Below, one piece after another: positions 4,839-12,525 of a DNA stretch of 64,000 nt (position 1 is the first letter of the stretch; every line of letters starts with the position of its first letter). This DNA is from Rhodopila sp. (lineage in GTDB: Bacteria > Pseudomonadota > Alphaproteobacteria > Acetobacterales > Acetobacteraceae), in assembly GCA_965277505.1 (NCBI GenBank), contig CBDIDA010000002.1:91629-155628 (forward strand), read 5' to 3'. Under the pieces are notes generated by a model. It did not search any database, was not told where the DNA came from, and saw nothing but the letters and a program-made list of their open reading frames with translations. The translations under genes and the position numbers were made by a program.

Positions 4839-5006
4839 ATAGTTCGGCGGCTAACGGCCATGCAAGCAGTGAACGGCTGACGGTGGCATGCCGAGGATGC
4901 CGGAATCCATTCGTCTACCGCGACGATGGCGGCGGCGACCTGGGCGGCTATCGACCTGATAGTGTCTGCCAGCGTCTGAATACCCGCCGCGTCCGGCACC
5001 AGTGGG

Positions 5007-5392
5007 TCAGGTAATGAACAGGCCGCCGAGCAGCCTGCCCTTGATGTCCATCACCGGACAAACCAGCCGCTCCGACACACCGAACTCCATCACCCGGTTG
5101 CCGTCTGCGGGCCCCTTGCCGTCTGGTCCGGAATACGAGCATTCGTTAACCAGCAGCGTGCTAAGGTAGGAGTTCCAATCCGAAAGCGGTCGATTGGTCA
5201 GTAGGTTGCCGACGGAATAACCCTGGTTGGCGATTCCATTGGTGATGTCGAAGCGCAGCAGGCCGACGCCGGTCAGCCCGACATTGCCGTTGTGGATGAT
5301 GGCAAGGCGATGCGTGCGGCCGTGGGCGCCTTGGCCAGAGCGACCTTCATCAGGCCGTTCAGCACCTTGTCGCGCCGGGCGACGATGCGAAG
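5007..5392 (-). pseudogene. GAF-like small protein, paralog of 5621..6163, apparently frameshifted
   Basis: The C-terminal ~100 aa (frame of ORF 5007..5453) align with the paralog: RPLSDWNSYL vs QPISDWAAFL, and VCPVMDIKGRLLGGLFIT vs VHPVCDSQGRLVGAVFLTW. The matching N-terminal segment (DKVLNGLMKVALAKAPTAAR vs HRLINALLASLLRAAPPASR) lies in a different frame. The switch point is near 5305-5315. No in-frame start is available in the C-terminal frame other than the implausible one at 5453. Confidence 0.45.
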
Positions 5393-5617
5393 CTACTGTT
5401 GCATGGCCTCGGCGGCGCGGGGCTTGGTCAGCAGCGCTTGGATCGCCGGCCACAGGCCGCCCTCGCGGCCTGACATCACCGCCAGGATCAGGCTGGCCGA
5501 CAACAGGACTGTCATCAGCGGGCCGCGGAGCAGCACCACCAGGGGGGATGTCGATGTCGCCAAGTTACGCAGAAGGCGCAGGAGCAGAATCAGGTCCCAC
5601 AGGTTGATACCGAACAC
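5393..5617 (-). CDS. small hydrophobic protein (about 2 TM), unknown function
   Basis: 74-aa ORF starting 3 nt after the stop of 5621..6163. GC-rich third codon positions. Two hydrophobic stretches (LWDLILLLRLL, LMTVLLSASLILAVM). Ends in TAG directly before the N-terminal remnant of the GAF-like pseudogene. Confidence 0.35.
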   Translation of the reverse strand: MFGINLWDLILLLRLLRNLATSTSPLVVLLRGPLMTVLLSASLILAVMSGREGGLWPAIQALLTKPRAAEAMQQ

Positions 5618-5620
5618 CGT

Positions 5621-6163
5621 TTACGCCGCCAGGGCGAGAGTGGAGGCAGGATGGGCAAACACCTGCAGGCAGAATGTGAGTACTGCAGCCAGTTGGCGAA
5701 CGGCTTCGGCAGCTTCGTCTGTCAGTGCCGGGTGTTGCGCCTGTTGGGTAGGCTGCCTCCAAGCGCGCCAGGTCAGGAACACCGCGCCCACGAGCCGGCC
5801 CTGGCTATCGCATACCGGATGAACGGCTGTTTCACGGGCCAAGGGGGACTGAAGGCGTTGGTGCAGCAAGGATGGAGGAACATCATTCAGGCTGACCCAC
5901 CTGCCCTGCCCGGTTTGCAGCGCCGGCAGGAAGGCGGCCCAATCGCTGATCGGCTGGTTGCAAGGCAGCAGACTGCCTGGGCGCGCCGGATGCCTGGCGA
6001 GGCTGCTGATCAGGCTGTAGTGGGCGCAGGCGGCTTCGTCCCGCAGCTGTTCTATGACGGCGAGATAAGCCCTTGATGCCGGAGGTGCGGCACGAAGCAG
6101 AGAGGCAAGGAGCGCGTTGATCAACCGGTGTACCGCCGATGTCGATCCTGTTGGAATATACAA
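5621..6163 (-). CDS. GAF-like domain protein, unknown function
   Basis: 180-aa ORF. A GAF-type C-terminal strand motif (HPVCDSQGRLVGAVFLTW) and paralogy with 5007..5392. Confidence 0.5.
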   Translation of the reverse strand: MYIPTGSTSAVHRLINALLASLLRAAPPASRAYLAVIEQLRDEAACAHYSLISSLARHPARPGSLLPCNQPISDWAAFLPALQTGQGRWVSLNDVPPSLLHQRLQSPLARETAVHPVCDSQGRLVGAVFLTWRAWRQPTQQAQHPALTDEAAEAVRQLAAVLTFCLQVFAHPASTLALAA

Positions 6164-6661
6164 GTAATCAGATCCTAAAGGAGGCGCCGCTGCATCCGCG
6201 ACCGGATGGCTGATCAGCGGGTTCAGGTGGCGGCAAAGATGTCGATTTCTACGCGGTATCGGATCGTTCGCAATTTAGTTTGATAATGCGACAAGTGAAT
6301 GCTGATCATCAGTATATCAACGTGACACAAGCCTGGCATCGACCGGTGCCGCGCAGCAGCGCCAGCTATGCTTCCGCCACGTTGATCCGCGAGCAAAGGG
6401 TTCCATCGTCAGCCTCGCAACCCGATCAGTCCTCGTATCGTGGCGACTTCACGCCTCAGGACGATCAGAGCTCCATGCTATTTGATGTGGCCGGGATCGG
6501 TTCACTTGAAGCAGCACTGTCCAGATCGTTATGGCATGGCTGGAGATGAATAGAACCGGGTCCACATGGTCATCCCAATAGTTTGCGAATTACTACAGTT
6601 GTATAGACGATAATGGGTATGTTGACAGGACCGAGCTTGATCAGCACGCCGAATTTGAGAC

Positions 6662-6725
6662 CGCTATGCGCTATGCGCTATGCGCTATGCGCTATGCGCT
6701 ATGCGACATGCCGACATGCGACATG
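6662..6725. repeat. heptanucleotide tandem repeat: (CGCTATG)x6 followed by three CGACATG variants
   Basis: Read directly. Six perfect CGCTATG units span 6662-6703. CGACATG follows at 6704-6710, 6712-6718 and 6719-6725. It lies 9 nt beyond the stop of the minus-strand gene 6734..7486. Confidence 0.95.
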
Positions 6726-6733
6726 CCAATCGG

Positions 6734-7486
6734 TTAACGATAATCGGATGAAGGCATCTCGAGCGACCGCGCGGCGGGGCTTCCGCACAATGCGAGGCGC
6801 GACTGCGGATGGCAGGAGCTGTCGCCGGCTGCCGGCGCTCCGCCGCAAATCGCGCGCCTGTGCTTTAACCGAAGACATGCCGCGAGCGCCGGCACGGCTG
6901 CCACGGTAATGGCCGCGCGAGCGGCGATGCCGATGATGGCGTAGCTGATCACCTGGCGGGCGGGAAGCCGGGTTGCGAACGCTGCGGGGAAGAAGACCGC
7001 GCCGTCCAGCGTGTTGAGCACGATCATGAGCAGCGGTATGCGCACAAGTGCCGGTCGCGGCGATGGATGGTCCATCCAGCGGACGAACAGCGACTGCACC
7101 AGGTAGAATGCGACGATGCGGGCGCCCCCTAGCTGGATGTGCGCGTCAATCCACGGGCCGACGACGCCGCCGTCCTGCAGCAGGAACATTGACACCAGCA
7201 CGATCAGCATGGCCAGCAGCGCTTCGCTGATCATCCGGTATGCCCACCAGGTGCCATGGAACAAGTGGTTCAGGGCAAAGCCGTACATGACGATGGCAAA
7301 GAACAGGTTGCCGACGTTGGTGGTGTAGCCGAACATGGCGAACGGGAAGGTGCCGAACAGCGGCACGCAGATCAGGACCGCGGCGTTGTTAACTGCCAGC
7401 AGGACTGCGTGGCGGGTAGCCGCCAGCGTCGTCAACCCGATCAGGAAGAGCACCAGCAGGATGATGTTGATGTCCTGGTACGTCAT
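6734..7486 (-). CDS. VUT (YhhQ/queuosine-precursor transporter)-like integral membrane protein, divergent paralog 1
   Basis: 250-aa multi-TM ORF. Motifs resemble the VUT family: FFAIVMYGFALNHLFHGTWWAYR, ARIVAFYLVQSLFVRWMD, NTLDGAVFFPAAF. Its ATG overlaps the stop of the upstream small ORF (ATGA at 7483-7486). Confidence 0.5.
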   Translation of the reverse strand: MTYQDINIILLVLFLIGLTTLAATRHAVLLAVNNAAVLICVPLFGTFPFAMFGYTTNVGNLFFAIVMYGFALNHLFHGTWWAYRMISEALLAMLIVLVSMFLLQDGGVVGPWIDAHIQLGGARIVAFYLVQSLFVRWMDHPSPRPALVRIPLLMIVLNTLDGAVFFPAAFATRLPARQVISYAIIGIAARAAITVAAVPALAACLRLKHRRAICGGAPAAGDSSCHPQSRLALCGSPAARSLEMPSSDYR

Positions 7487-7689
7487 GTCATAGTCCGATG
7501 CCGCAGCCGCTTGAGCAGAAAATCAAAGCCGAAGCCCCCCATCCCACCCAGGGCACCGGACAGGATGATACCACACTGCGGGGCGTTGGCCGCCTGCGCC
7601 ATGACGGACCCGCCGAAGCCGGCACAGGTGCCCATCAGCATGACCAGGACAAGCTGTATGACGACCGATCTTGCACGTTGGTGTTTCAT
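7483..7689 (-). CDS. small membrane protein A1, holin-like (2 TM, glycine-zipper C-terminal TM plus basic tail)
   Basis: 68 aa taken from the internal ATG at 7689, which overlaps the stop of VUT paralog 2 (ATGA). Its C-terminus ILSGALGGMGGFGFDFLLKRLRHR matches the C-terminus of ORF 9479..9775. Confidence 0.5.
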   Translation of the reverse strand: MKHQRARSVVIQLVLVMLMGTCAGFGGSVMAQAANAPQCGIILSGALGGMGGFGFDFLLKRLRHRTMT

Positions 7690-8363
7690 GGACCGGCCTG
7701 TACCGCCGCCTGATCGGTGAGCACCCTGGGGCGCCTGCGGTGCAGGTGCAGGCAAACAGCCAGCATTGGCATGGCAAGCATTGTAATGATGACTTTGGTG
7801 ATAATGCTCGTGATAGCGAAGCCGGCGACAATTCGAGCTGGGACGCGCGGGAAAAATACGATCGGATAGAATATTATGGTGTCGAAGATCATGACCACGA
7901 CCAAGATTACCGGGACGCTGAGGACGGTCGGCAGCCCCCAGGGGCGGTCAAGCAGGTAGATCAGCAGCGCCTGCGTCAAGGAGAAGACCACCAACCGCGC
8001 ACCCATCACGTCGACACGCGCGCCGAATCCGGTGTTCAGCAGGTGCACGTCTTCGAGCAGGAACAGCGAGAGCAAGACGACGCCCGTGGCGACCAGGCAG
8101 TGCGTGACGGCCTGACGGGCGGCCCGAGTGCCGTAGATCACATGCTTCAACGCGACGCCGTAAAGCACAACGGGGTAATAGACGAAGCCCACATAGCCTT
8201 GATGGCCGTGTGCGGTATATGGCAGCGACTGAACGAGCAACGTGGTTATCATGATGGCGATACTGACGGCGACCAGCAAGCTACGCTGCCGCAGGGCGGT
8301 GATTGTCGTCACCGCCAGAAGCAAAGCCGCGATCAAGGCCAAGTTGAGATCGAGATGAGTCAC
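7686..8363 (-). CDS. VUT (YhhQ)-like integral membrane protein, paralog 2
   Basis: 225 aa with a GTG start. Motifs VYYPVVLYGVALKHVIYGTRAARQAV, ARLVVFSLTQALLIYLLDR, MIFDTIIFYPIVFF, ITKVIITMLAMPMLAV. About 70-75% identical to paralog 3 over the stretches I aligned by eye. Confidence 0.6.
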   Translation of the reverse strand: MTHLDLNLALIAALLLAVTTITALRQRSLLVAVSIAIMITTLLVQSLPYTAHGHQGYVGFVYYPVVLYGVALKHVIYGTRAARQAVTHCLVATGVVLLSLFLLEDVHLLNTGFGARVDVMGARLVVFSLTQALLIYLLDRPWGLPTVLSVPVILVVVMIFDTIIFYPIVFFPRVPARIVAGFAITSIITKVIITMLAMPMLAVCLHLHRRRPRVLTDQAAVQAGP

Positions 8364-8372
8364 GACCGTTCT

Positions 8373-9038
8373 CTAGACGGCACTGGAACCGGCACGTTTG
8401 GCGAGGTCTTTGCGGTGCAGGTGGAGGCAAACGGCCAGTATCGGCACCGCGAGCAGCGTGACGGTGATCTTGGTGACAACGCCGACGGCGGCGAAGCCGG
8501 CAACAGTTTTAAGCGGGTAACGTGGAAGAAATGTCATAGGATAGAATATAACGCTGTCGAAGAGCAGGCTCACGACCAGGACCATCGGAACACGGAGAAG
8601 CAGCGGCAGCCGCGAGGGGCGGTCGAGCAAGTAGATCAGCAGCGCCTGCGTCAGGCAGAACACCACCAAGCGGGCGCCCATGACATCGACGCGTGCCTCA
8701 AGGCCCGTGTTCAGCAGGTGGACATCCTCGAGCAAAAAGACCGAGAGAAAGACGATGCCGGTAGCGATAAGGCAATGAGCCACAGCCTCACGCGCTGCCC
8801 GCGTGCCGTAGATCACATGCTGCAAGGCCAGGCCGTAGAGTACGGCCGGATAGTAGACAAAGACGACATACCCTTGATAGCCATGCGCCTTGTACGGCAG
8901 ATATCCGACCAGCAGGGTGCTCAGCATGATCGCAGTGCTGACGCTGACCAGCAGGCTACGATCCCGCAGCGCGGCGAACGTCGTTACGGCAAACAGCGAG
9001 AAGGCGATCAGTGCCAGGTTTAAGTCGAGATGAGTCAT
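8373..9038 (-). CDS. VUT (YhhQ)-like integral membrane protein, paralog 3
   Basis: 221 aa with the same motif set as paralog 2 (VYYPAVLYGLALQHVIYGTRAAREAV; LLFDSVIFYPMTF; VTKITVTLLAVPILAV). Its stop lies 9 nt before the paralog 2 start. Confidence 0.6.
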   Translation of the reverse strand: MTHLDLNLALIAFSLFAVTTFAALRDRSLLVSVSTAIMLSTLLVGYLPYKAHGYQGYVVFVYYPAVLYGLALQHVIYGTRAAREAVAHCLIATGIVFLSVFLLEDVHLLNTGLEARVDVMGARLVVFCLTQALLIYLLDRPSRLPLLLRVPMVLVVSLLFDSVIFYPMTFLPRYPLKTVAGFAAVGVVTKITVTLLAVPILAVCLHLHRKDLAKRAGSSAV

Positions 9039-9151
9039 GACAGTTCACGCCCAATGAGTTTTCTGAGAATTATGTCGAGGCCGAACGGGGGCGGAGACGC
9101 CCAGCGTGCTGGACATTACGCTTCCTTATTCCTGGCACTCGGCTGCCCGCG

Positions 9152-9482
9152 CTAGGGCGGTTTCGATGAAAACCGCTGCGACAGCACGATGACGGCTGCC
9201 GACAGGATGCAGGCTGGCGCGGCGAGGAGTTCGGGAGCCGTCACGCGTGTGCTTTCTGCGCTGCGGGCAAGTCCGGACGTGACGCGAGCCCTTCGACCTT
9301 CAGCCATAGCTGGAGAGAAAGAAACACCGTCGACAAGACGACCACGCCCGTTCTGAAGACGGTGCCCAGATCCGTGCTGCGGCCGAACGGCAGCGTGACT
9401 GGTAGCCCTGCAGCGAGGCACAAGTAATCAGGCCGAGCAGAAACAGCGCCCACAAAATGAGGTCGAACCTAATGTGGGTCAT
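9152..9482 (-). pseudogene. decayed fourth VUT-like paralog (internal deletion plus frameshifts)
   Basis: It starts with MTHIRFDLILWALFLLGLIT, compared with MTHLDLNLALIA... in paralogs 2 and 3. Its ATG overlaps the stop of ORF 9479..9775 (ATGA). Downstream fragments in two other frames resemble VUT motifs: LPFGRSTDLGTVF, and ACILSAAVIVLSQRF at the C-terminus. The total span is about half the length of an intact copy. Confidence 0.4.
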
Positions 9483-9775
9483 TGGCCGGTGAGGCTCAGC
9501 AGGCGTTTGATCAAGACATCGAAACCAAATGCGCCGGATGCGCCGAGCGCGCCCGAAAGAACATTGGCCCACTGCTGATGATCGGTGGCCTGAGCCAGCG
9601 CCGTGCCCATGAAGCCCATGAACCCACCCATCACGATGATGAACAGGAAATGCACTGCGACCCAGCGCGCCCGGCCTTGCATAATTTCGGAGAACCAGCG
9701 CGCGGCGGCGCCCACGGCACCAACCAAGGTGCCGACGGCGCCGGCAGTAAGCTCCGGCCATGAGTTCAGTTCCAC
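9479..9775 (-). CDS. small membrane protein A2, holin-like (3 TM, basic loop, glycine-zipper last TM plus basic tail)
   Basis: 98 aa. TM1 AGAVGTLVGAVGAAA, then loop QGRARW, then TM2 VAVHFLFIIVMGGFMGFMG, then VLSGALGASGAFGFDVLIKRLLSL. The C-terminal motif is shared with A1. Confidence 0.5.
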   Translation of the reverse strand: MELNSWPELTAGAVGTLVGAVGAAARWFSEIMQGRARWVAVHFLFIIVMGGFMGFMGTALAQATDHQQWANVLSGALGASGAFGFDVLIKRLLSLTGQ

Positions 9776-10338
9776 GCTGCGGCGCCACAGGTCAGGCCGC
9801 AGTTGCGACAGCGAGGTTGTAATCGGCCAGACAGCGTAAGGCTAGCTAGTTGGTAAATGAAAGCAATGGGTTCTCGCTGCGAATGGTCGGTGGCGCTGCT
9901 TGCGCTGATGGCAAGGCGAATGACGCCGTCCGGCGTGCTCATGTTGAAGATCCTGCGGGAAGAAGCGTTGGACAGTTCATCGTGCGGGGGATGGAAGGTG
10001 TTCTTGGGGTTTCGGAATGACATCGGACGGGACTGACCGGCGACATTCAGCAGTGCCCATAGCTGAAGGCGGGTCAGATGGGTTGCGCGGGGGTCGTCTG
10101 GGGGTTGTGGGGGCTTGCATTCCGGCAGGTCTTCGGGAATGCAGGCGGCGTGTGGGATCAGCCATATCTTGAAACGTGCTGCCGCTCTGCGTTGCACCGA
10201 CTTTTTCTCAGCGGTCAGGCTGGGCGTCCGTCGGGCTTGATGGATCATCCTTGCCAAAGCCGGCTGCGCGGCATGGGCTTGTGCCGGCTGGGGGATGACG
10301 GGCGGTTCCGGATTTCCATTAGCGGACTTGAGCGTCAT
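9766..10338 (-). CDS. hypothetical protein (Pro-rich N-terminus, C-terminal CRNCGLTCG)
   Basis: 190 aa counted from the ATG at 10338 (a GTG at 10359 is also possible). Its 3' end overlaps the A2 start by 10 nt. I recognise no family. Codon usage is somewhat less GC-biased than in the core genes. Confidence 0.4.
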   Translation of the reverse strand: MTLKSANGNPEPPVIPQPAQAHAAQPALARMIHQARRTPSLTAEKKSVQRRAAARFKIWLIPHAACIPEDLPECKPPQPPDDPRATHLTRLQLWALLNVAGQSRPMSFRNPKNTFHPPHDELSNASSRRIFNMSTPDGVIRLAISASSATDHSQREPIAFIYQLASLTLSGRLQPRCRNCGLTCGAAAWN

Positions 10339-10581
10339 GGGAACGAGGTGCTTCCCCACAAACCATTAGCCAAATAGCGACCAGATCATAGCCATTGCGG
10401 CGTCGTATTCGACGTTGTCTCCGATTTTGGCAGATGCTTGGCCAACGTGTCGCGTATACCGCGCCGATGCTCCTTTATCGCCAATCACAGCGAAGGGATA
10501 CGTTTACATTATGCCGGAAGTGGCTGATTCATGGGGCGAAGCGTGGCTGCCACGGGTCTCCCGCTGCTACGCGATCGAATG

Positions 10582-10818
10582 CTAGGACAGCGGCGCGGTG
10601 ACGACCGTCTGGACGTCAGCCAGGGTCACGCACAGGATACGCGCACCATCAGTCGCGGTGATCATGATCAGGTCGCCTACGGTCAGCATGTCGCTGGCGT
10701 CGGCGAGGTAGTTGGCACTGCTGATCGCCTGCAGATTGTCCTTGGCCGATTTGTAGTGCCAAAGCGTGAAACCGTTCGCGTAAGCGAGCACCGACAGATT
10801 GCGGATGGCGAGGGCCAT
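10582..10818 (-). CDS. small conserved-looking hypothetical protein (78 aa)
   Basis: An internal ATG at 10818 is preceded by AAGGA about 6 nt upstream. Product begins MALAIRNLSVLAYANGFTLWHYKS. The extension of the longer ORF up to 10905 runs through a terminator hairpin and is unlikely to be coding. Confidence 0.55.
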   Translation of the reverse strand: MALAIRNLSVLAYANGFTLWHYKSAKDNLQAISSANYLADASDMLTVGDLIMITATDGARILCVTLADVQTVVTAPLS

Positions 10819-10834
10819 GGCGAGGTCCTTACAT

Positions 10835-10865
10835 AAAAAAAGCCGCGTCCTTTGGGACAGCGGCT
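10835..10865 (-). terminator. intrinsic terminator-like hairpin plus U7 tract inside the leader of the 78-aa gene
   Basis: The minus strand reads AGCCGC-tgtcccaaaggac-GCGGCT followed by TTTTTTT. It ends about 17 nt before the ATG at 10818. Confidence 0.6.
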
Positions 10866-10924
10866 GCTGGAGTTGAACGGGGGATGAGGCTATCGAAGGG
10901 CGCACCTCGCCCGTTGATACGAAT

Positions 10925-10954
10925 ACATTACGAGAACGATAGCCACTCTGTCAA
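10925..10954 (-). promoter_or_regulatory. sigma70-like promoter (TTGACA - 18 nt - TAATGT)
   Basis: Read on the minus strand within an AT-rich stretch: ttatcgTTGACAgagtggctatcgttctcgTAATGTattc. This predicts a transcription start near 10917-10919. Confidence 0.45.
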
Positions 10955-11084
10955 CGATAATTTTCCTATGATTGTTATTCTTAAGAAAGACAATATAGAT
11001 AACACATCGCAACAATTTTGCGGTGCTTTGTTAACGGCGGTGGTGATTCGGCTGGTCTCCCGATAGCTCTGCGGCCGCGGCCGC

Positions 11085-11537
11085 TTACGCCACGATCCCC
11101 TTGACGCGCAGTGGCCATTCCAAGCGCTCCAGCGCTTCGACCCAGAGTTGATGATCGCGCCTCTCAGCAGCCACTCGCGGGCATGGGGCGATCTGGCGCT
11201 CACCCCAGATGCGCAGGATACGGGCGTGCGTAAGGTCGATACGTTGCTGGCGGTATAGTCCGTCAAGACATTTGACCACGTCGTCGGGATCGCACGGGCG
11301 GGTCACCTGGCCTTTATTAGCGGTGTAACGGGCGCCGTCACGCCGGGCAATCAGCGCTGCCATGGTCCACAGCCAGGCATCCTCGCCGCTGCCAAACGGC
11401 TGTGTGCCGGAGACGCTGCGTGGATAGGAGGCGGCGGATTCGTCGGGCGCATCCGGTCGCTTGCCGAGGTGCAATGTGACGGACTTAGACTTGGTGGAAT
11501 GGGATGTCAACATGTTGGGGCGGGCGGCAAGCGGCAT
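11085..11537 (-). CDS. hypothetical protein (150 aa)
   Basis: The ORF shows coding-like composition. Its C-terminal half (LTHARILRIWGERQ...HQLWVEALERLEWPLRVKGIV) looks like a conserved small regulator, but I cannot name a family. It is transcribed divergently from the S24 repressor gene. Confidence 0.5.
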   Translation of the reverse strand: MPLAARPNMLTSHSTKSKSVTLHLGKRPDAPDESAASYPRSVSGTQPFGSGEDAWLWTMAALIARRDGARYTANKGQVTRPCDPDDVVKCLDGLYRQQRIDLTHARILRIWGERQIAPCPRVAAERRDHQLWVEALERLEWPLRVKGIVA

Positions 11538-11598
11538 GGCAGAGCGTTCCAGGTTGTTTCTCTACGCGAAAGTCCGCGCGTTAGCATATAACCATAGG

Positions 11599-11614
11599 TT
11601 GCATACAAATGCAA
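11599..11614. promoter_or_regulatory. candidate operator palindrome TTGCAT-acaa-ATGCAA in a divergent promoter region
   Basis: A perfect 6-bp inverted repeat read directly from the sequence. It lies between the divergent genes 11085..11537 (-) and 11731..12381 (+). Confidence 0.25.
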
Positions 11615-11730
11615 GTAAACCTGGTTGATTTTCCTATTTCCATCGGCAGCAATTCCTAACATAATCGCGCCACGACGATTCGCCGCCGTCAATCAAGGTT
11701 GCCGACGTGCCCGCGCACAGGAGTTGACTG

Positions 11731-12381
11731 ATGAAGCATGAGGATGTCTGGCGTGCCATTGATACTCTGGCGGCCGAAAATGGTCTGTCCGCCTCGGGCC
11801 TTGCCAAGCGATCCGGACTGGACGCGACGACGTTCAATCCGTCGAAGCGGCGGATGCCGGATGGGCGGGCGCGCTGGCCAAGCACGGAAAGTGTCGCCAA
11901 GGTGTTGGATGCGACGGGTGCGTCACTGGAGAGTTTCACATCATTAGTGTCCGGGGCGCGGGCGCTGGCCAGCAGCAGCACGGGCCGCGCCGTTTCACGC
12001 CGGGTGCCGCTGATCGGTCTGGCGCAGGCCGGCGGCGAAGGCTATTTCGACGACGGGGGCTATCCGGTCGGCGGCAGTTGGGACGAGGTCAGCCTGCCGG
12101 AGATCGCCGATCCCAACGCCTATGCGCTGGAGATCAGCGGCGAGTCGATGGAGCCGGTTTTTCGTGACGGCGACCTGGTGATCGTCTCGCCCACCGCGCC
12201 GATCCGCCGCAGCGACCGGGTGGTGGTGCGCACCGTGGGCGGTGAAGTGATGGCCAAGCAACTTGCCCGCCGCTCTGCCCGTCGGGTCGAGCTCAAGAGC
12301 CTCAATCCCGAGCATTCGGACTACAGCTTCGACCTGGCCGACGTTGCCTGGATCCATCGCATCGTCTGGGCTAGCCAGTAG
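11731..12381 (+). CDS. HTH plus peptidase S24 (LexA/phage cI-like) transcriptional repressor
   Basis: 216 aa. N-terminal HTH-like segment LSASGLAKRSGLDATTFN. C-terminal S24 fold motifs: ISGESMEPVFRDGDLVIVSP, and a Lys in EVMAKQL. Confidence 0.8.
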   Translation: MKHEDVWRAIDTLAAENGLSASGLAKRSGLDATTFNPSKRRMPDGRARWPSTESVAKVLDATGASLESFTSLVSGARALASSSTGRAVSRRVPLIGLAQAGGEGYFDDGGYPVGGSWDEVSLPEIADPNAYALEISGESMEPVFRDGDLVIVSPTAPIRRSDRVVVRTVGGEVMAKQLARRSARRVELKSLNPEHSDYSFDLADVAWIHRIVWASQ

Positions 12382-12525
12382 TGGCCGCGGACGGGCTGCT
12401 GGGTGCCGATGTGGGCGATCTCGGGCCGGCTTCACGGGTGCGCGCGCCAGGGTTGGATCAGGCTGGATTTCCTTTGACGAGGCGGCGCATTCGTGTGTCA
12501 GATCGTCGGCAGGAGGGCTGCTTGC

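What the first reader, a model, noticed from the sequence alone, without database searches (positions are those of the whole stretch)
6734..10338. Translationally coupled array alternating holin-like small membrane proteins with amplified VUT/YhhQ-like permease paralogs
Seen in the sequence, minus-strand order: ORFan (190 aa), A2 (98 aa), decayed VUT copy, VUT3, VUT2, A1 (68 aa), VUT1. The junctions are:
- ORFan/A2: 10-nt overlap
- A2/psiVUT4: ATGA at 9479-9482
- VUT3/VUT2: 9-nt gap
- VUT2/A1: ATGA at 7686-7689
- A1/VUT1: ATGA at 7483-7486

A1 and A2 share the C-terminal signature LSGALGxxGxFGFDxLxKRL, a glycine-zipper TM followed by a basic tail. A2 also has the TM1 - basic loop - TM2 layout. 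From memory, this resembles the last TM plus tail of lambda/HP1/LydA-type phage holins.

The ~220-aa proteins carry motifs I associate with the VUT family: YP...IYGtraAR, ARLVVF..tQ, FD(S/T)xIFYP, TKxxxTxLAxP. VUT2 and VUT3 are recent duplicates, about 70-75% identical where I aligned them. VUT1 is much more diverged, and a fourth copy is decaying.

Established knowledge: VUT/YhhQ proteins are single-component importers (preQ0/preQ1 in E. coli), and I know of no small partner subunit for them.

Inference: the two gene types have been duplicated together and are stoichiometrically coupled. This could be a new two-component membrane module. Candidate roles are a transporter with an accessory subunit, a holin/antiholin-type release device, or a toxin/immunity pair. 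The adjacent S24 repressor and terminator-containing leader suggest tight, possibly stress-induced control.
Basis: partly seen in the sequence, partly recalled or inferred. Interest (0 to 1): 0.75.

Follow-up and report, generated by a model that had tools for sequence, protein, structure and literature searches.

The report
Holin-like protein paired with VUT-like membrane protein
A small phage-holin-like membrane protein and a divergent relative of the queuosine-precursor (VUT/YhhQ) transporters form a conserved, translationally coupled gene pair found in phages and in Rhodopila-like bacteria; this genome has amplified it into a partly decayed array, and the pairing appears undescribed with its function untested.

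Summary
Both family guesses hold as distant homology. VUT3 passes Pfam Vut_1. A2 and 24 of 26 relatives match the LydA-type holin family.

The 190-aa "ORFan" is not a gene. It is the antisense shadow of a conserved 75-aa gene on the plus strand.

The A-VUT pair is ancestral: syntenic Rhodopila-like loci carry one A and one VUT. All four distant A homologues with retrievable context are followed, with a 1-4 nt overlap, by a Vut_1-type gene. One sits in a podovirus-like contig after the virion genes. Another sits directly after an Rz-like spanin gene.

VUT was lost twice while A stayed intact, though A was then less constrained.

My best reading is a phage-derived holin plus a polytopic partner, antiholin- or gate-like, domesticated and amplified here. 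A Cid/Lrg-like two-subunit transporter is the main rival. The link to the S24 repressor is unproven. I rate it a new variant of a known kind, of moderate to high interest.

The parts
9479..9775 (-). A2: full-length 98-aa holin-like small membrane protein with three helices; first gene of the operon (GTG start)
   Evidence: It is an ORF. It matches Pfam PF16083 at 24.8 bits (E 2.5e-5) and PHROG 785 'holin' at E 1.5e-5. The AlphaFold2 model has helices 7-32, 36-63 and 67-96 at pLDDT 73. There are 23 homologues at 62-95% identity. dN/dS is 0.09.
9240..9482 (-). psi-VUT4: decayed VUT copy, with its N-terminus kept, an internal deletion and frame changes
   Evidence: It shows tblastn matches to the equivalent copy in L001 and to the L005 VUT. 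Its start overlaps the A2 stop in an ATGA.
9039..9230 (-). psi-A3: decayed third copy of the small protein, carrying a stop codon and a frameshift
   Evidence: It shows tblastn matches to the 83-aa A3 ORF of L001 (8598-8849), interrupted by a stop and a frame change.
8373..9038 (-). VUT3: 221-aa divergent VUT-family membrane protein
   Evidence: It matches Pfam Vut_1 at 31.9 bits, above the gathering score of 27.2. The AlphaFold2 model has pLDDT 81 with seven helices and a hairpin. The best fold matches are predicted viral VUT-like proteins, with TM 0.68-0.73. dN/dS is 0.13.
7686..8363 (-). VUT2: 225-aa paralogue of VUT3 (69-72% identity) with no A gene of its own
   Evidence: It matches Pfam Vut_1 at 21.3 bits, below the cut-off, and TIGR00697 at 21.5 bits, also below. 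dN/dS is 0.32.
7483..7689 (-). A1: 68-aa N-terminally shortened A paralogue that lacks helix 1
   Evidence: It is 47% identical to A2. It has ATGA overlaps on both sides. Orthologues exist in L001 and as P0030. dN/dS is 0.15.
6734..7486 (-). VUT1: 250-aa VUT-like protein, closer than VUT2/3 to the single-copy ancestral type
   Evidence: It is 40-46% identical to the single VUT of L002, L005 and L018, against 35% to VUT3. It has no Pfam hit on its own.
9776..10149 (.). Non-coding region between the A operon and the divergent 75-aa gene; presumed promoter and leader of the A operon
   Evidence: The ORFan frame here has dN/dS 1.10. The 58-aa sub-ORF (9766-9942) has dN/dS 1.38. The region is poorly conserved between loci. 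An inverted repeat lies at 10113-10146.
10150..10377 (+). Conserved 75-aa Cys-containing gene, divergent from the A operon; candidate local regulator (inference only)
   Evidence: It is conserved in all related loci at 60-88% identity. dN/dS is 0.22 and the third codon position is the most variable. It has no Pfam or PHROG match.
10582..10818 (-). 78-aa phage-type protein (PHROG 18004), part of the conserved island
   Evidence: It matches PHROG 18004 at E 2.1e-10. It is 77-97% identical across loci.
10835..10954 (-).
   Evidence: The terminator scan found it. It aligns across 9 loci. The consensus structure has 22 pairs, 7 of them with compensatory changes. It has no Rfam match.
11085..11537 (-). 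150-aa conserved protein of unknown function, divergent from the S24 repressor gene
   Evidence: It is conserved at 58-85% identity in all related loci. It has no Pfam, PHROG or PADLOC match.
11731..12381 (+). CI/LexA-like S24 self-cleaving repressor
   Evidence: It matches Pfam Peptidase_S24 at E 3.6e-22 and PHROG 4 'transcriptional repressor' at E 3.7e-28. It is 92-98% identical in seven of the eight related species' loci (79% in L003/L008).

Best explanation
**What it is (shown)**
- This is a phage-derived two-gene membrane module.
- Gene 1 (A, about 96 aa) is a small membrane protein with three predicted helices, distantly related to LydA-type (superfamily III) phage holins.
- Gene 2 (about 215 aa, seven predicted helices) is a divergent member of the VUT/QPTR (YhhQ, COG1738) family.
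- Gene 2 starts 1-4 nt before the stop of gene 1.
- The pair is the ancestral unit. It occurs once per genome at a syntenic chromosomal site in Rhodopila-like Acetobacteraceae.
- The pair also occurs in a podovirus-like phage after the virion genes, and next to an Rz-like spanin gene on another contig.
- In this window the unit was tandemly amplified to four units. Two half-units have since decayed, leaving A2, VUT3, VUT2, A1 and VUT1 intact and under purifying selection.

**How it most likely works (inferred)**
- A is the autonomous, oligomerising, hole- or channel-forming component, acting like a holin.
- The VUT-like protein is its co-translated, membrane-embedded partner. It binds A and sets whether or when A opens. 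That makes it an antiholin or gate, occupying the place LydB holds after LydA in phage P1.
- The chromosomal copies are a domesticated version that permeabilises the inner membrane in a controlled way, with no adjacent endolysin.
- It is probably not a preQ0/preQ1 importer.
For: **Family assignments**
- Pfam and PHROG matches support both families.

**Conservation of the pair**
- A single A plus a single VUT, overlapping or adjacent, sit at the same site in L002, L003, L005, L006 and L018. The site lies between the S24 repressor and pyrD.
- All four distant A homologues whose context could be fetched are followed by a Vut_1-type gene with a 1- or 4-nt overlap: P0041, P0047, P0043 and P0042, on contigs of 52-64% GC.

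**Phage and lysis context**
- L012 carries a virion structural protein, a DNA-ejection protein and an SLT-domain virion protein directly upstream of the pair.
- L022 has a PHROG 1275 Rz-like spanin lipoprotein (E 8.9e-11) 10 nt upstream of A.
- A holin followed by an overlapping partner is the lydA/lydB arrangement in P1, and the gp72/gp73 arrangement in phage JC1 (PMC9144972).

**A looks like the core component**
- VUT was lost twice while A stayed intact.
  - L004 keeps only a VUT remnant.
  - In the L010/L011/L024 clade VUT is deleted, yet that clade contains about 10 distinct intact A variants.
- No locus retains VUT without an A in the operon.

**The two proteins are functionally linked**
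- dN/dS of A rises to 0.46 where VUT is absent, against 0.09-0.17 elsewhere.

**The VUT-like proteins differ from characterised transporters**
- They fail the TIGR00697 and PRK11212 equivalog cut-offs.
- They lack the YhhQ-type GDxLTExYG motif.

**No fusion**
- An exhaustive HMM search found only 23 A-family clusters, all 55-138 aa.
Against: - No endolysin lies next to the pair in any locus examined.
- In the phage contig L012 the pair follows a hairpin and a promoter-like TTGACG in a 215-bp gap. That looks like an independent moron-type unit rather than part of a late lysis operon.
- The only demonstrated activity of the VUT family is transport.
- The partner-type VUTs keep intramembrane polar residues (Q131, and the DSxxF(F/Y)PxxF motif) across 16-30% identity. 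An inert antiholin would not obviously need these.
- The holin match of A2 itself is below Pfam's gathering score (24.8 against 28.4 bits).
- Fold search with the A2 model gave no significant hit (best E 0.2).
- If VUT restrained a lethal holin, losing it should be costly.
- No physical interaction between A and VUT has been shown or modelled here.
Confidence: 0.42

Rival explanations
1. The pair is a two-subunit transporter that works like CidAB/LrgAB/PftAB. The VUT-like protein is the substrate-binding core. A is a small holin-like accessory subunit needed for assembly or gating. Together they move a small metabolite, possibly a nucleobase or deazapurine-like compound, which benefits the host or the phage as an auxiliary metabolic module.
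For: - The larger proteins belong to the VUT family.
- Polar intramembrane positions and the DSxxFFPxAF motif are retained across very divergent pairs.
- In phage L012 the pair looks like a moron with its own promoter-like site and no endolysin.
- Constraint on A relaxes after VUT loss.
- There is precedent for a 'holin-like' small protein plus a polytopic partner forming a hetero-oligomeric transporter. Examples are PftAB in B. subtilis (PMC5626966) and LrgAB in S. mutans (PMC6790026).
Against: - A persists intact in many variants where VUT is deleted. An accessory subunit should then decay.
- No locus has a partner-type VUT without A in the operon.
- A spanin gene sits directly upstream of the pair in L022.
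- The proteins fail the queuosine-precursor-transporter equivalog models and lack the YhhQ-type acidic motif.
- No Q-pathway genes or preQ1 riboswitch lie nearby.
Confidence: 0.28
2. The pair is a conflict module. A is a small membrane-depolarising toxin or effector, and the VUT-like protein is its cognate immunity or antitoxin partner. Alternatively the pair is a superinfection-exclusion or abortive-infection moron. The amplified array then reflects diversification of toxin/immunity specificities, with orphan immunity copies.
For: - The window holds a tandem array with diverged paralogues: A1/A2 are 47% identical and VUT1/VUT3 are 35% identical.
- VUT2 is an orphan copy without its own A.
- A1 is an N-terminally truncated A copy, and other copies have decayed. 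This resembles orphan toxin-immunity arrays.
- The pair is phage-derived, and its placement in L012 is moron-like.
- It lies next to a CI-like S24 repressor in a phage-like island.
Against: - There are no matches to any PADLOC defence model.
- Paralogue and orthologue dN/dS values are 0.1-0.3, which is not diversifying selection.
- Most genomes carry a single pair at a fixed syntenic site, which suggests vertical inheritance rather than rapid turnover.
- Loss of the supposed immunity gene with retention of the toxin occurred twice.
Confidence: 0.15
3. The two genes have unrelated functions, or the region is a decaying prophage remnant. Adjacency would then be a historical accident.
For: - Two of the units in the window are pseudogenes.
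- VUT has been lost in some relatives.
- An IS110 element truncates VUT1 in L001.
Against: - The same gene order and the same stop/start overlap recur in at least five independent contexts, spanning 52-64% GC and 16-30% protein identity.
- Both genes are under purifying selection.
- Constraint on A depends on the presence of VUT.
Confidence: 0.04

Closest known systems
Phage P1 LydA/LydB and the LydA-like holin cassettes (Pfam PF16083, holin superfamily III), e.g. Burkholderia phage JC1 gp72/gp73
   Same: - A is a small, glycine-rich protein with three predicted helices and a basic C-terminal tail.
- It matches PF16083 and PHROG 785.
- The downstream partner gene starts within the holin's stop codon.
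- It occurs at the end of a virion module and beside a spanin gene.
   Different: - The partner is a polytopic VUT-family protein with seven predicted helices. It is not LydB, which the JC1 paper contrasts with its two-TM partner gp73, nor a two-TM second holin.
- No endolysin is adjacent.
- A2 itself scores below the Pfam gathering threshold.
- The chromosomal copies are vertically inherited and amplified.
CidAB / LrgAB / PftAB (holin-like small protein plus polytopic partner)
   Same: - The architecture is the same: a holin-like small membrane protein co-transcribed with a ~220-aa multi-helix membrane protein.
- Both are chromosomal and have no endolysin.
- Both raise the same dual question: holin, transporter, or both? 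(PMC5626966, PMC8805020, PMC5717393.)
   Different: - The families are unrelated. Neither LrgA nor LrgB appeared among the Pfam matches.
- The origin here is phage and Alphaproteobacteria, not the Firmicute LytSR/CidR regulons.
- The resemblance is by analogy only.
QPTR/YhhQ (COG1738, PF02592) queuosine-precursor transporters, including solitary phage copies such as Pantoea phage Vid5 ORF41
   Same: - It matches Pfam Vut_1 and has similar length and helix count.
- It shares the DSxxF(F/Y)PxxF motif.
- The best structural matches are predicted viral VUT proteins.
   Different: - It scores below the TIGR00697 and PRK11212 equivalog cut-offs.
- The YhhQ-type GDxLTExYG motif is replaced.
- Every member of this subgroup seen here has an A gene in the same operon, usually directly upstream. 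The L015 and L019 reference VUTs have none, and in Vid5 the VUT and the holin are far apart.
- There is no link to Q genes or riboswitches.

Membership tests
VUT / QPTR superfamily (Pfam PF02592 Vut_1) | Score at or above the Pfam gathering threshold (27.2 bits) over the Vut_1 domain | tested here: met
   VUT3 scores 31.9 bits. Six of 8 clade members match, best E 1.6e-14. The partner proteins of L012 and L021 score 40.8 and 66.2 bits. VUT2 scores 21.3 bits, and VUT1 alone gives no hit but is 35-46% identical to matching members.
Queuosine-precursor transporter equivalogs (TIGR00697; PRK11212 YhhQ) | Score above the curated equivalog cut-off (50.95 and 252 bits) | tested here: not met
   VUT2 scores 21.5 bits on TIGR00697. 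VUT1 scores 11.8 bits on PRK11212. VUT3 has no hit.
Queuosine-precursor transporter equivalogs (TIGR00697; PRK11212 YhhQ) | YhhQ-type FPxSYxxGDxLTExYG motif, and genomic or regulatory linkage to Q salvage (tgt, preQ1 riboswitch) | tested here: not met
   The motif is replaced in all A-partnered VUTs (alignment A9). There is no riboswitch or other Rfam hit in 6000-12500. No Q genes appear in the neighbourhoods. The 'YhhQ-type' motif is defined here from one reference sequence (L015) and my own knowledge of YhhQ.
Queuosine-precursor transporter equivalogs (TIGR00697; PRK11212 YhhQ) | Transport of preQ0, preQ1 or queuine | not testable with these tools
   This needs uptake or complementation assays in a queD yhhQ background.
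LydA-type holins (Pfam PF16083, PHROG 785) | Sequence match to the family model | tested here: inconclusive
   A2 scores 24.8 bits, below the gathering score of 28.4 (E 2.5e-5). Twenty-four of 26 relatives match at E<=0.01, best 7.3e-7. PHROG 785 gives E 1.5e-5 for A2, 1.5e-9 for the phage copy and 3.7e-7 for L023. This is distant homology, not clear membership.
LydA-type holins (Pfam PF16083, PHROG 785) | Small protein with two or three transmembrane helices and a charged C-terminal tail | tested here: met
   The AlphaFold2 model has three helices, at 7-32, 36-63 and 67-96. The interhelix loop is basic and the tail is KRLL, read from the sequence.
LydA-type holins (Pfam PF16083, PHROG 785) | Encoded in a lysis cassette with an endolysin and spanins | tested here: inconclusive
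   An Rz-like spanin lies directly upstream in L022. The pair follows the virion genes in L012. No endolysin is adjacent in any locus, and none is present in the chromosomal loci.
LydA-type holins (Pfam PF16083, PHROG 785) | Forms lethal membrane holes that release endolysin | not testable with these tools
   This needs a lysis-cassette complementation assay or a membrane-potential assay.
CidAB / LrgAB family | Homology to LrgA (small subunit) and LrgB (large subunit) | tested here: not met
   Neither LrgA nor LrgB appeared among the Pfam matches for any A or VUT-like protein. The resemblance is architectural only.

The most novel reading that the evidence does not exclude
A transporter-fold (VUT/QPTR) protein has been recruited by phages as a ligand-sensing, membrane-embedded partner of a holin. 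Lysis timing would then be gated by a small molecule. In the domesticated Rhodopila copies, the gated process would be regulated membrane permeabilisation or release. This would be a new class of antiholin or holin gate and the first non-transport role for the VUT fold. The alternative is equally new: the VUT fold can work as a two-subunit system with a holin-like protein.
Probability: 0.18. Interest if true: 0.8.

Novelty: new variant of a known kind. Interest (0 to 1): 0.6.

Why it matters
- VUT/QPTR proteins are treated as single-component queuosine-precursor importers. Here a distinct subgroup is, in every case seen, co-translated with a holin-family protein. That warns against transferring the 'queuosine precursor transporter' annotation to this subgroup.
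- It adds a second, unrelated example of the Cid/Lrg theme, in which a holin-like small protein is partnered with a polytopic membrane protein. This one has a visible phage origin and a domesticated chromosomal form. That makes the question 'holin, transporter, or both?' testable in a new system.
- If the large partner acts as an antiholin or gate, it would be a new kind of lysis regulator.
- The family is rare: 23 clusters at 50% identity among 1.84 billion representatives, and three GTDB species. Its ecological reach is therefore narrow.

Tried and rejected
- **Riboswitch or known RNA in the leader.** A permissive Rfam scan of 6000-12500 gave nothing relevant.
- **ORFan as a gene.** Rejected on frame-specific conservation and dN/dS. 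Its 58-aa C-terminal sub-ORF has a Shine-Dalgarno site but dN/dS of 1.38, so it was rejected as a conserved protein.
- **Shared TGCAT...ATGCA operator linking the S24 promoter and the A operon.** The count is no higher than chance.
- **Rosetta-stone fusions of A and VUT.** None were found among all A-family hits.
- **Cultured-phage database.** tblastn with the phage A, the phage VUT and two other distant A homologues gave no matches.
- **IMG/VR scans.**
  - Single distant A proteins found nothing.
  - The VUT profile found only the same phage plus a solitary YhhQ-type VUT with no A gene.
- **Metagenome scan with the VUT profile.** It added one more syntenic Rhodopila-type locus and one solitary VUT with no A gene.
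- **PDB.** There was no sequence or fold relative for the VUT-like protein.
- **Fold search with the A2 model.** Not significant.
- **PADLOC defence models.** No matches.
- **Weak A2 match to the ECF S-component family PF12822** (E 0.004-0.006 in 5 of 26 members). I treat it as compositional and did not use it.

Full report
**1. What is in the sequence**

On the minus strand of 6734-9775 lie the following ORFs:
- VUT1, 6734-7486, 250 aa.
- A1, 7483-7689, 68 aa counted from its ATG.
- VUT2, 7686-8363, 225 aa.
- VUT3, 8373-9038, 221 aa.
- A2, 9479-9775, 98 aa, with a GTG start.

There are ATGA stop/start overlaps at 9479-9482, 7686-7689 and 7483-7486, and a 9-nt gap between VUT3 and VUT2.

The paralogue relationships also hold:
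- A1 and A2 are 47% identical and share the C-terminal LSGALGxxGxFGFDxLxKRL signature.
- VUT2 and VUT3 are 69-72% identical.
- VUT1 is 35% identical to VUT3.

The stretch 9039-9482 is not one decayed gene but two. It holds a decayed VUT copy (about 9240-9482) and a decayed A copy (about 9039-9230), with a stop codon and frame changes. In the closest relative, L001 (A2 95% identical), that third A copy is still an 83-aa ORF. L001 also has an IS110-family element that truncates VUT1.

The array therefore descends from four A/VUT-type units: A2 with psi-VUT4, psi-A3 with VUT3, VUT2 with no A, and A1 with VUT1.

**2. The ORFan is not a gene**

I aligned the interval between the 78-aa gene and A across the window and five related loci. 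This shows one conserved block whose period-3 pattern fits the opposite strand.

The plus-strand ORF at 10150-10377 encodes a 75-aa Cys-containing protein (VWDQPYLETCCRSALHRL...). It is present in every related locus.

| Reading of the DNA, window against L001 | dN/dS |
|---|---|
| Plus-strand 75-aa frame | 0.22 |
| ORFan frame, same DNA | 1.10 |
| 58-aa C-terminal sub-ORF (9766-9942) | 1.38 |

Further points:
- Across eight loci, the variable columns by codon position of the 75-aa frame are 36, 24 and 62 of 68.
- The ORFan is frameshifted in L001.
- The 58-aa sub-ORF has a Shine-Dalgarno site and crude counterparts in some loci, but its dN/dS shows it is not a conserved protein.

A2 is therefore the first gene of the operon. 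The operon is transcribed divergently from the 75-aa gene across a non-coding region of about 370 bp.

**3. Family assignments**

For the 220-aa proteins:
- VUT3 matches Pfam Vut_1 at 31.9 bits, above the gathering score of 27.2. VUT2 scores 21.3 bits.
- Across the clade, 6 of 8 VUT-like proteins match, with best E 1.6e-14.
- They do not reach the curated 'queuosine precursor transporter' equivalog cut-offs. TIGR00697 gives 21.5 bits against 50.95, and PRK11212 gives 11.8 against 252.
The YhhQ-type FPxSYxxGDxLTExYG motif is replaced, while the DSxxF(F/Y)PxxF motif and a conserved Gln are kept.
- The AlphaFold2 model of VUT3 has pLDDT 81 and pTM 0.79, with seven helices and a hairpin.
- The model has no PDB fold relative; the best hit has E 0.4. 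No PDB sequence relative was found either.
- It does match predicted viral proteins, with TM 0.68-0.73. One of them is annotated as a putative vitamin uptake transporter.

For the small proteins:
- A2 matches Pfam PF16083 (LydA holin, superfamily III) at 24.8 bits, just under the gathering score of 28.4. It also matches PHROG 785 'holin' at E 1.5e-5.
- 24 of 26 A-family members match PF16083, with best E 7.3e-7.
- The A2 model has three helices, at 7-32, 36-63 and 67-96.
- A1 lacks the first helix.

**4. The genes are real and selected**

| Comparison | dN/dS |
|---|---|
| A2, window vs L001 | 0.09 |
| A1, window vs L001 | 0.15 |
| VUT3, window vs L001 | 0.13 |
| VUT2, window vs L001 | 0.32 |
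| A, between single-copy loci | 0.10-0.17 |
| VUT, between single-copy loci | 0.12 |

**5. The pair is ancestral and recurrent**

A-family proteins are rare:
- The word-indexed search found 23 homologues at 62-95% identity.
- An exhaustive HMM search of 1.84 billion cluster representatives found only 23 clusters. All are 55-138 aa long, so there are no fusions with VUT.
- Among GTDB species genomes, only three carry one: two Rhodopila MAGs and one unclassified alphaproteobacterial MAG. I infer that the window comes from a Rhodopila-like member of the Acetobacteraceae.

Every related chromosomal locus is syntenic. The gene order is:
- DUF1194 gene;
- S24 repressor;
- divergently, a 127-152-aa protein;
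- the 78-aa PHROG-18004 protein;
- the convergent 75-aa gene;
- A, then VUT;
- variable PAS, coiled-coil and GAF-like membrane proteins;
- pyrD.

L002, L003, L005, L006 and L018 each have one A and one VUT, overlapping or adjacent. The window and L001 lineage is the one that amplified the unit.

The decisive result concerns the distant A homologues. All four whose context could be retrieved are followed by a Vut_1-type gene with a 1- or 4-nt overlap.

| A homologue | Locus | Downstream Vut_1-type gene |
|---|---|---|
| P0041 | L012/L013 | E 3.7e-10 |
| P0047 | L021 | E 5.4e-18 |
| P0043 | L022 | partial, E 3.5e-5 |
| P0042 | L023 (52% GC) | partial; shares the VDSVIFFPLSF motif |

These VUT partners are only 16-30% identical to the window's, yet they share the subgroup's features. 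By contrast, the other VUT genes recovered in the scans (L015, a YhhQ-type copy, and L019) have no A-like gene upstream. In Pantoea phage Vid5, the VUT gene and the PF16083 holin are far apart.

**6. Phage origin and lysis context**

L012/L013 is a phage contig. Directly upstream of the pair lie:
- a virion structural protein (PHROG 6121, E 1.9e-49);
- a PAPS-reductase-like protein;
- an SLT-domain virion protein;
- a DNA-ejection protein (PHROG 26400, E 2.5e-31).

Downstream are convergent early-type genes, including a YqaJ/RecE-like exonuclease. The phage A copy matches PHROG 785 'holin' at E 1.5e-9.

In L022, the gene 10 nt upstream of A is a 78-aa lipoprotein. It matches PHROG 1275 'Rz-like spanin' at E 8.9e-11.

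A LydA-like holin whose stop codon overlaps the start of a second membrane-protein gene is the arrangement described for P1 lydA/lydB and for Burkholderia phage JC1 gp72/gp73 (PMC9144972).

Against a simple lysis cassette:
- No endolysin is adjacent in any locus.
- In L012 the pair follows a hairpin and a promoter-like TTGACG in a 215-bp gap, as a moron would.

**7. Which partner is the core?**

VUT has been lost at least twice while A stayed intact:
- L004 retains only a 79-residue remnant of VUT.
- The L010/L011/L024 clade has lost VUT completely, yet it contains about ten distinct intact A variants.

No locus keeps a partner-type VUT without an A gene in the operon.

In the VUT-less clade, dN/dS of A is 0.46. 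Its neighbouring genes there show 0.10 and 0.16. A can therefore persist alone, but it is less constrained without VUT. This indicates that the two proteins are functionally linked, with A as the more autonomous component.

**8. Mechanism**

*Shown:*
- a conserved, translationally coupled, phage-derived pair;
- a holin-family small protein and a divergent VUT-family polytopic protein;
- amplification and partial decay of the unit in this genome.

*Inferred, my best reading at 0.42:*
- A is a holin-like protein that oligomerises into holes or channels.
- The VUT-like protein is its membrane-embedded partner and gates or antagonises it, as an antiholin would.
- The chromosomal copies act as a domesticated, endolysin-less permeabilisation device.

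*Rivals:*
- **Main rival, 0.28.** A Cid/Lrg/PftAB-like two-subunit transporter. Those systems show that 'holin-like' pairs can be transporters, holins, or both (PMC5626966, PMC6790026, PMC8805020).
- **Toxin/immunity or exclusion module, 0.15.** This reading fits the array of diverged, orphan and truncated copies. It has no PADLOC support, and dN/dS values are low.
- **Accidental adjacency, 0.04.** The recurrence of the pair essentially excludes this.

**9. Regulation**

It consists of:
- a conserved promoter, with TTGACA at 10954-10949 and TAATGT at 10930-10925;
- an RNA of about 85 nt with a conserved 5' hairpin, a C/U-rich linker and a GC-rich hairpin followed by a run of seven T.

The RNA ends 17 nt before the ATG of the 78-aa gene. 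It is conserved in nine loci, with compensatory changes in 7 of 22 predicted pairs. It has no Rfam match.

The S24 protein is a CI/LexA-like repressor (Pfam E 3.6e-22, PHROG 4 E 3.7e-28). It is unusually conserved: 92-98% identical in seven of the eight related species' loci, and 79% in L003/L008. However, two genes and the convergent 75-aa gene separate it from the A operon. Its control of A-VUT is therefore conjecture.

The divergent 75-aa protein is the more obvious candidate for a local regulator. That is inference from position only, because it has no Pfam or PHROG match.

**10. Novelty**

I searched the held literature for YhhQ, VUT or COG1738 together with holin or phage. I also read the 2024 survey of QPTR diversity. 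Neither turned up any description of a holin-like partner for VUT-family proteins.

The components belong to known families. The architecture of a holin-like small protein plus a partner is also known. The specific conserved pairing is new, as are its phage-to-chromosome domestication and its amplification here. I rate it a new variant of a known kind, with interest about 0.6. The family's narrow distribution and the untested function limit the score.

Noticed in passing
window 10835-10954 (-): There is a conserved sigma-70-like promoter (TTGACA-N18-TAATGT) followed by an ~85-nt RNA. The RNA has a conserved 5' hairpin, a C/U-rich single-stranded linker and a GC hairpin with a T7 terminator. 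It ends 17 nt before the start of the 78-aa PHROG-18004 gene. It is conserved in nine loci, with compensatory changes in 7 of 22 pairs, and has no Rfam match. It is a candidate new sRNA or attenuator leader.
   Followed up: partly
window 10150-10377 (+): This is a conserved 75-aa Cys-containing protein gene (VWDQPYLETCCRSALHRL...). dN/dS is 0.22 and it has no Pfam or PHROG match. Gene callers missed it in most related loci. A 16-nt inverted repeat (10113-10146) lies just upstream of its start.
   Followed up: partly
window 11731-12381 (+): The S24 CI/LexA-like repressor is 92-98% identical in seven of the eight related species' loci (79% in L003/L008), even though synonymous sites in those loci are saturated. 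That is far more conserved than any neighbouring gene in the island, which suggests a role beyond silencing a prophage remnant.
   Followed up: no
window 6662-6727: Two adjoining heptamer tandem arrays (CGCTATG x6.3 and ATGCGAC x3.6) lie immediately downstream of the VUT1 stop codon.
   Followed up: no
window 4992-5554 (-): The homologue of the ~236-aa membrane GAF-like protein found downstream of the pair in relatives is split into two frames here. The tblastn pieces are 5554-5303 and 5309-4992, so it is probably a frameshifted pseudogene. A paralogue at 5621-6163 is intact.
   Followed up: no
L001 10398-12389: In the closest relative, an IS110-family transposase insertion truncates VUT1 after about 37 codons. 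The same array is therefore decaying differently in sister lineages.
   Followed up: no
L012 1-14294 (also L013, L014, L016, L017): This is an uncultured podovirus-like phage contig with 63% GC. It has Bcep22-like virion genes: an acyl-CoA N-acyltransferase, a PAPS reductase, an SLT virion protein and an ejection protein. It carries the A-VUT pair as a separate unit after a hairpin and a promoter-like site. It has no match in the cultured-phage collection.
   Followed up: partly
L005 7935-8784; L004 7877-8804; L018 3231-3647: In several single-copy loci, the A-VUT pair is followed by a small PAS-domain protein and a ~130-aa membrane-anchored coiled-coil protein. Both are conserved across loci but absent from the window. 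They may be further components of the island.
   Followed up: no
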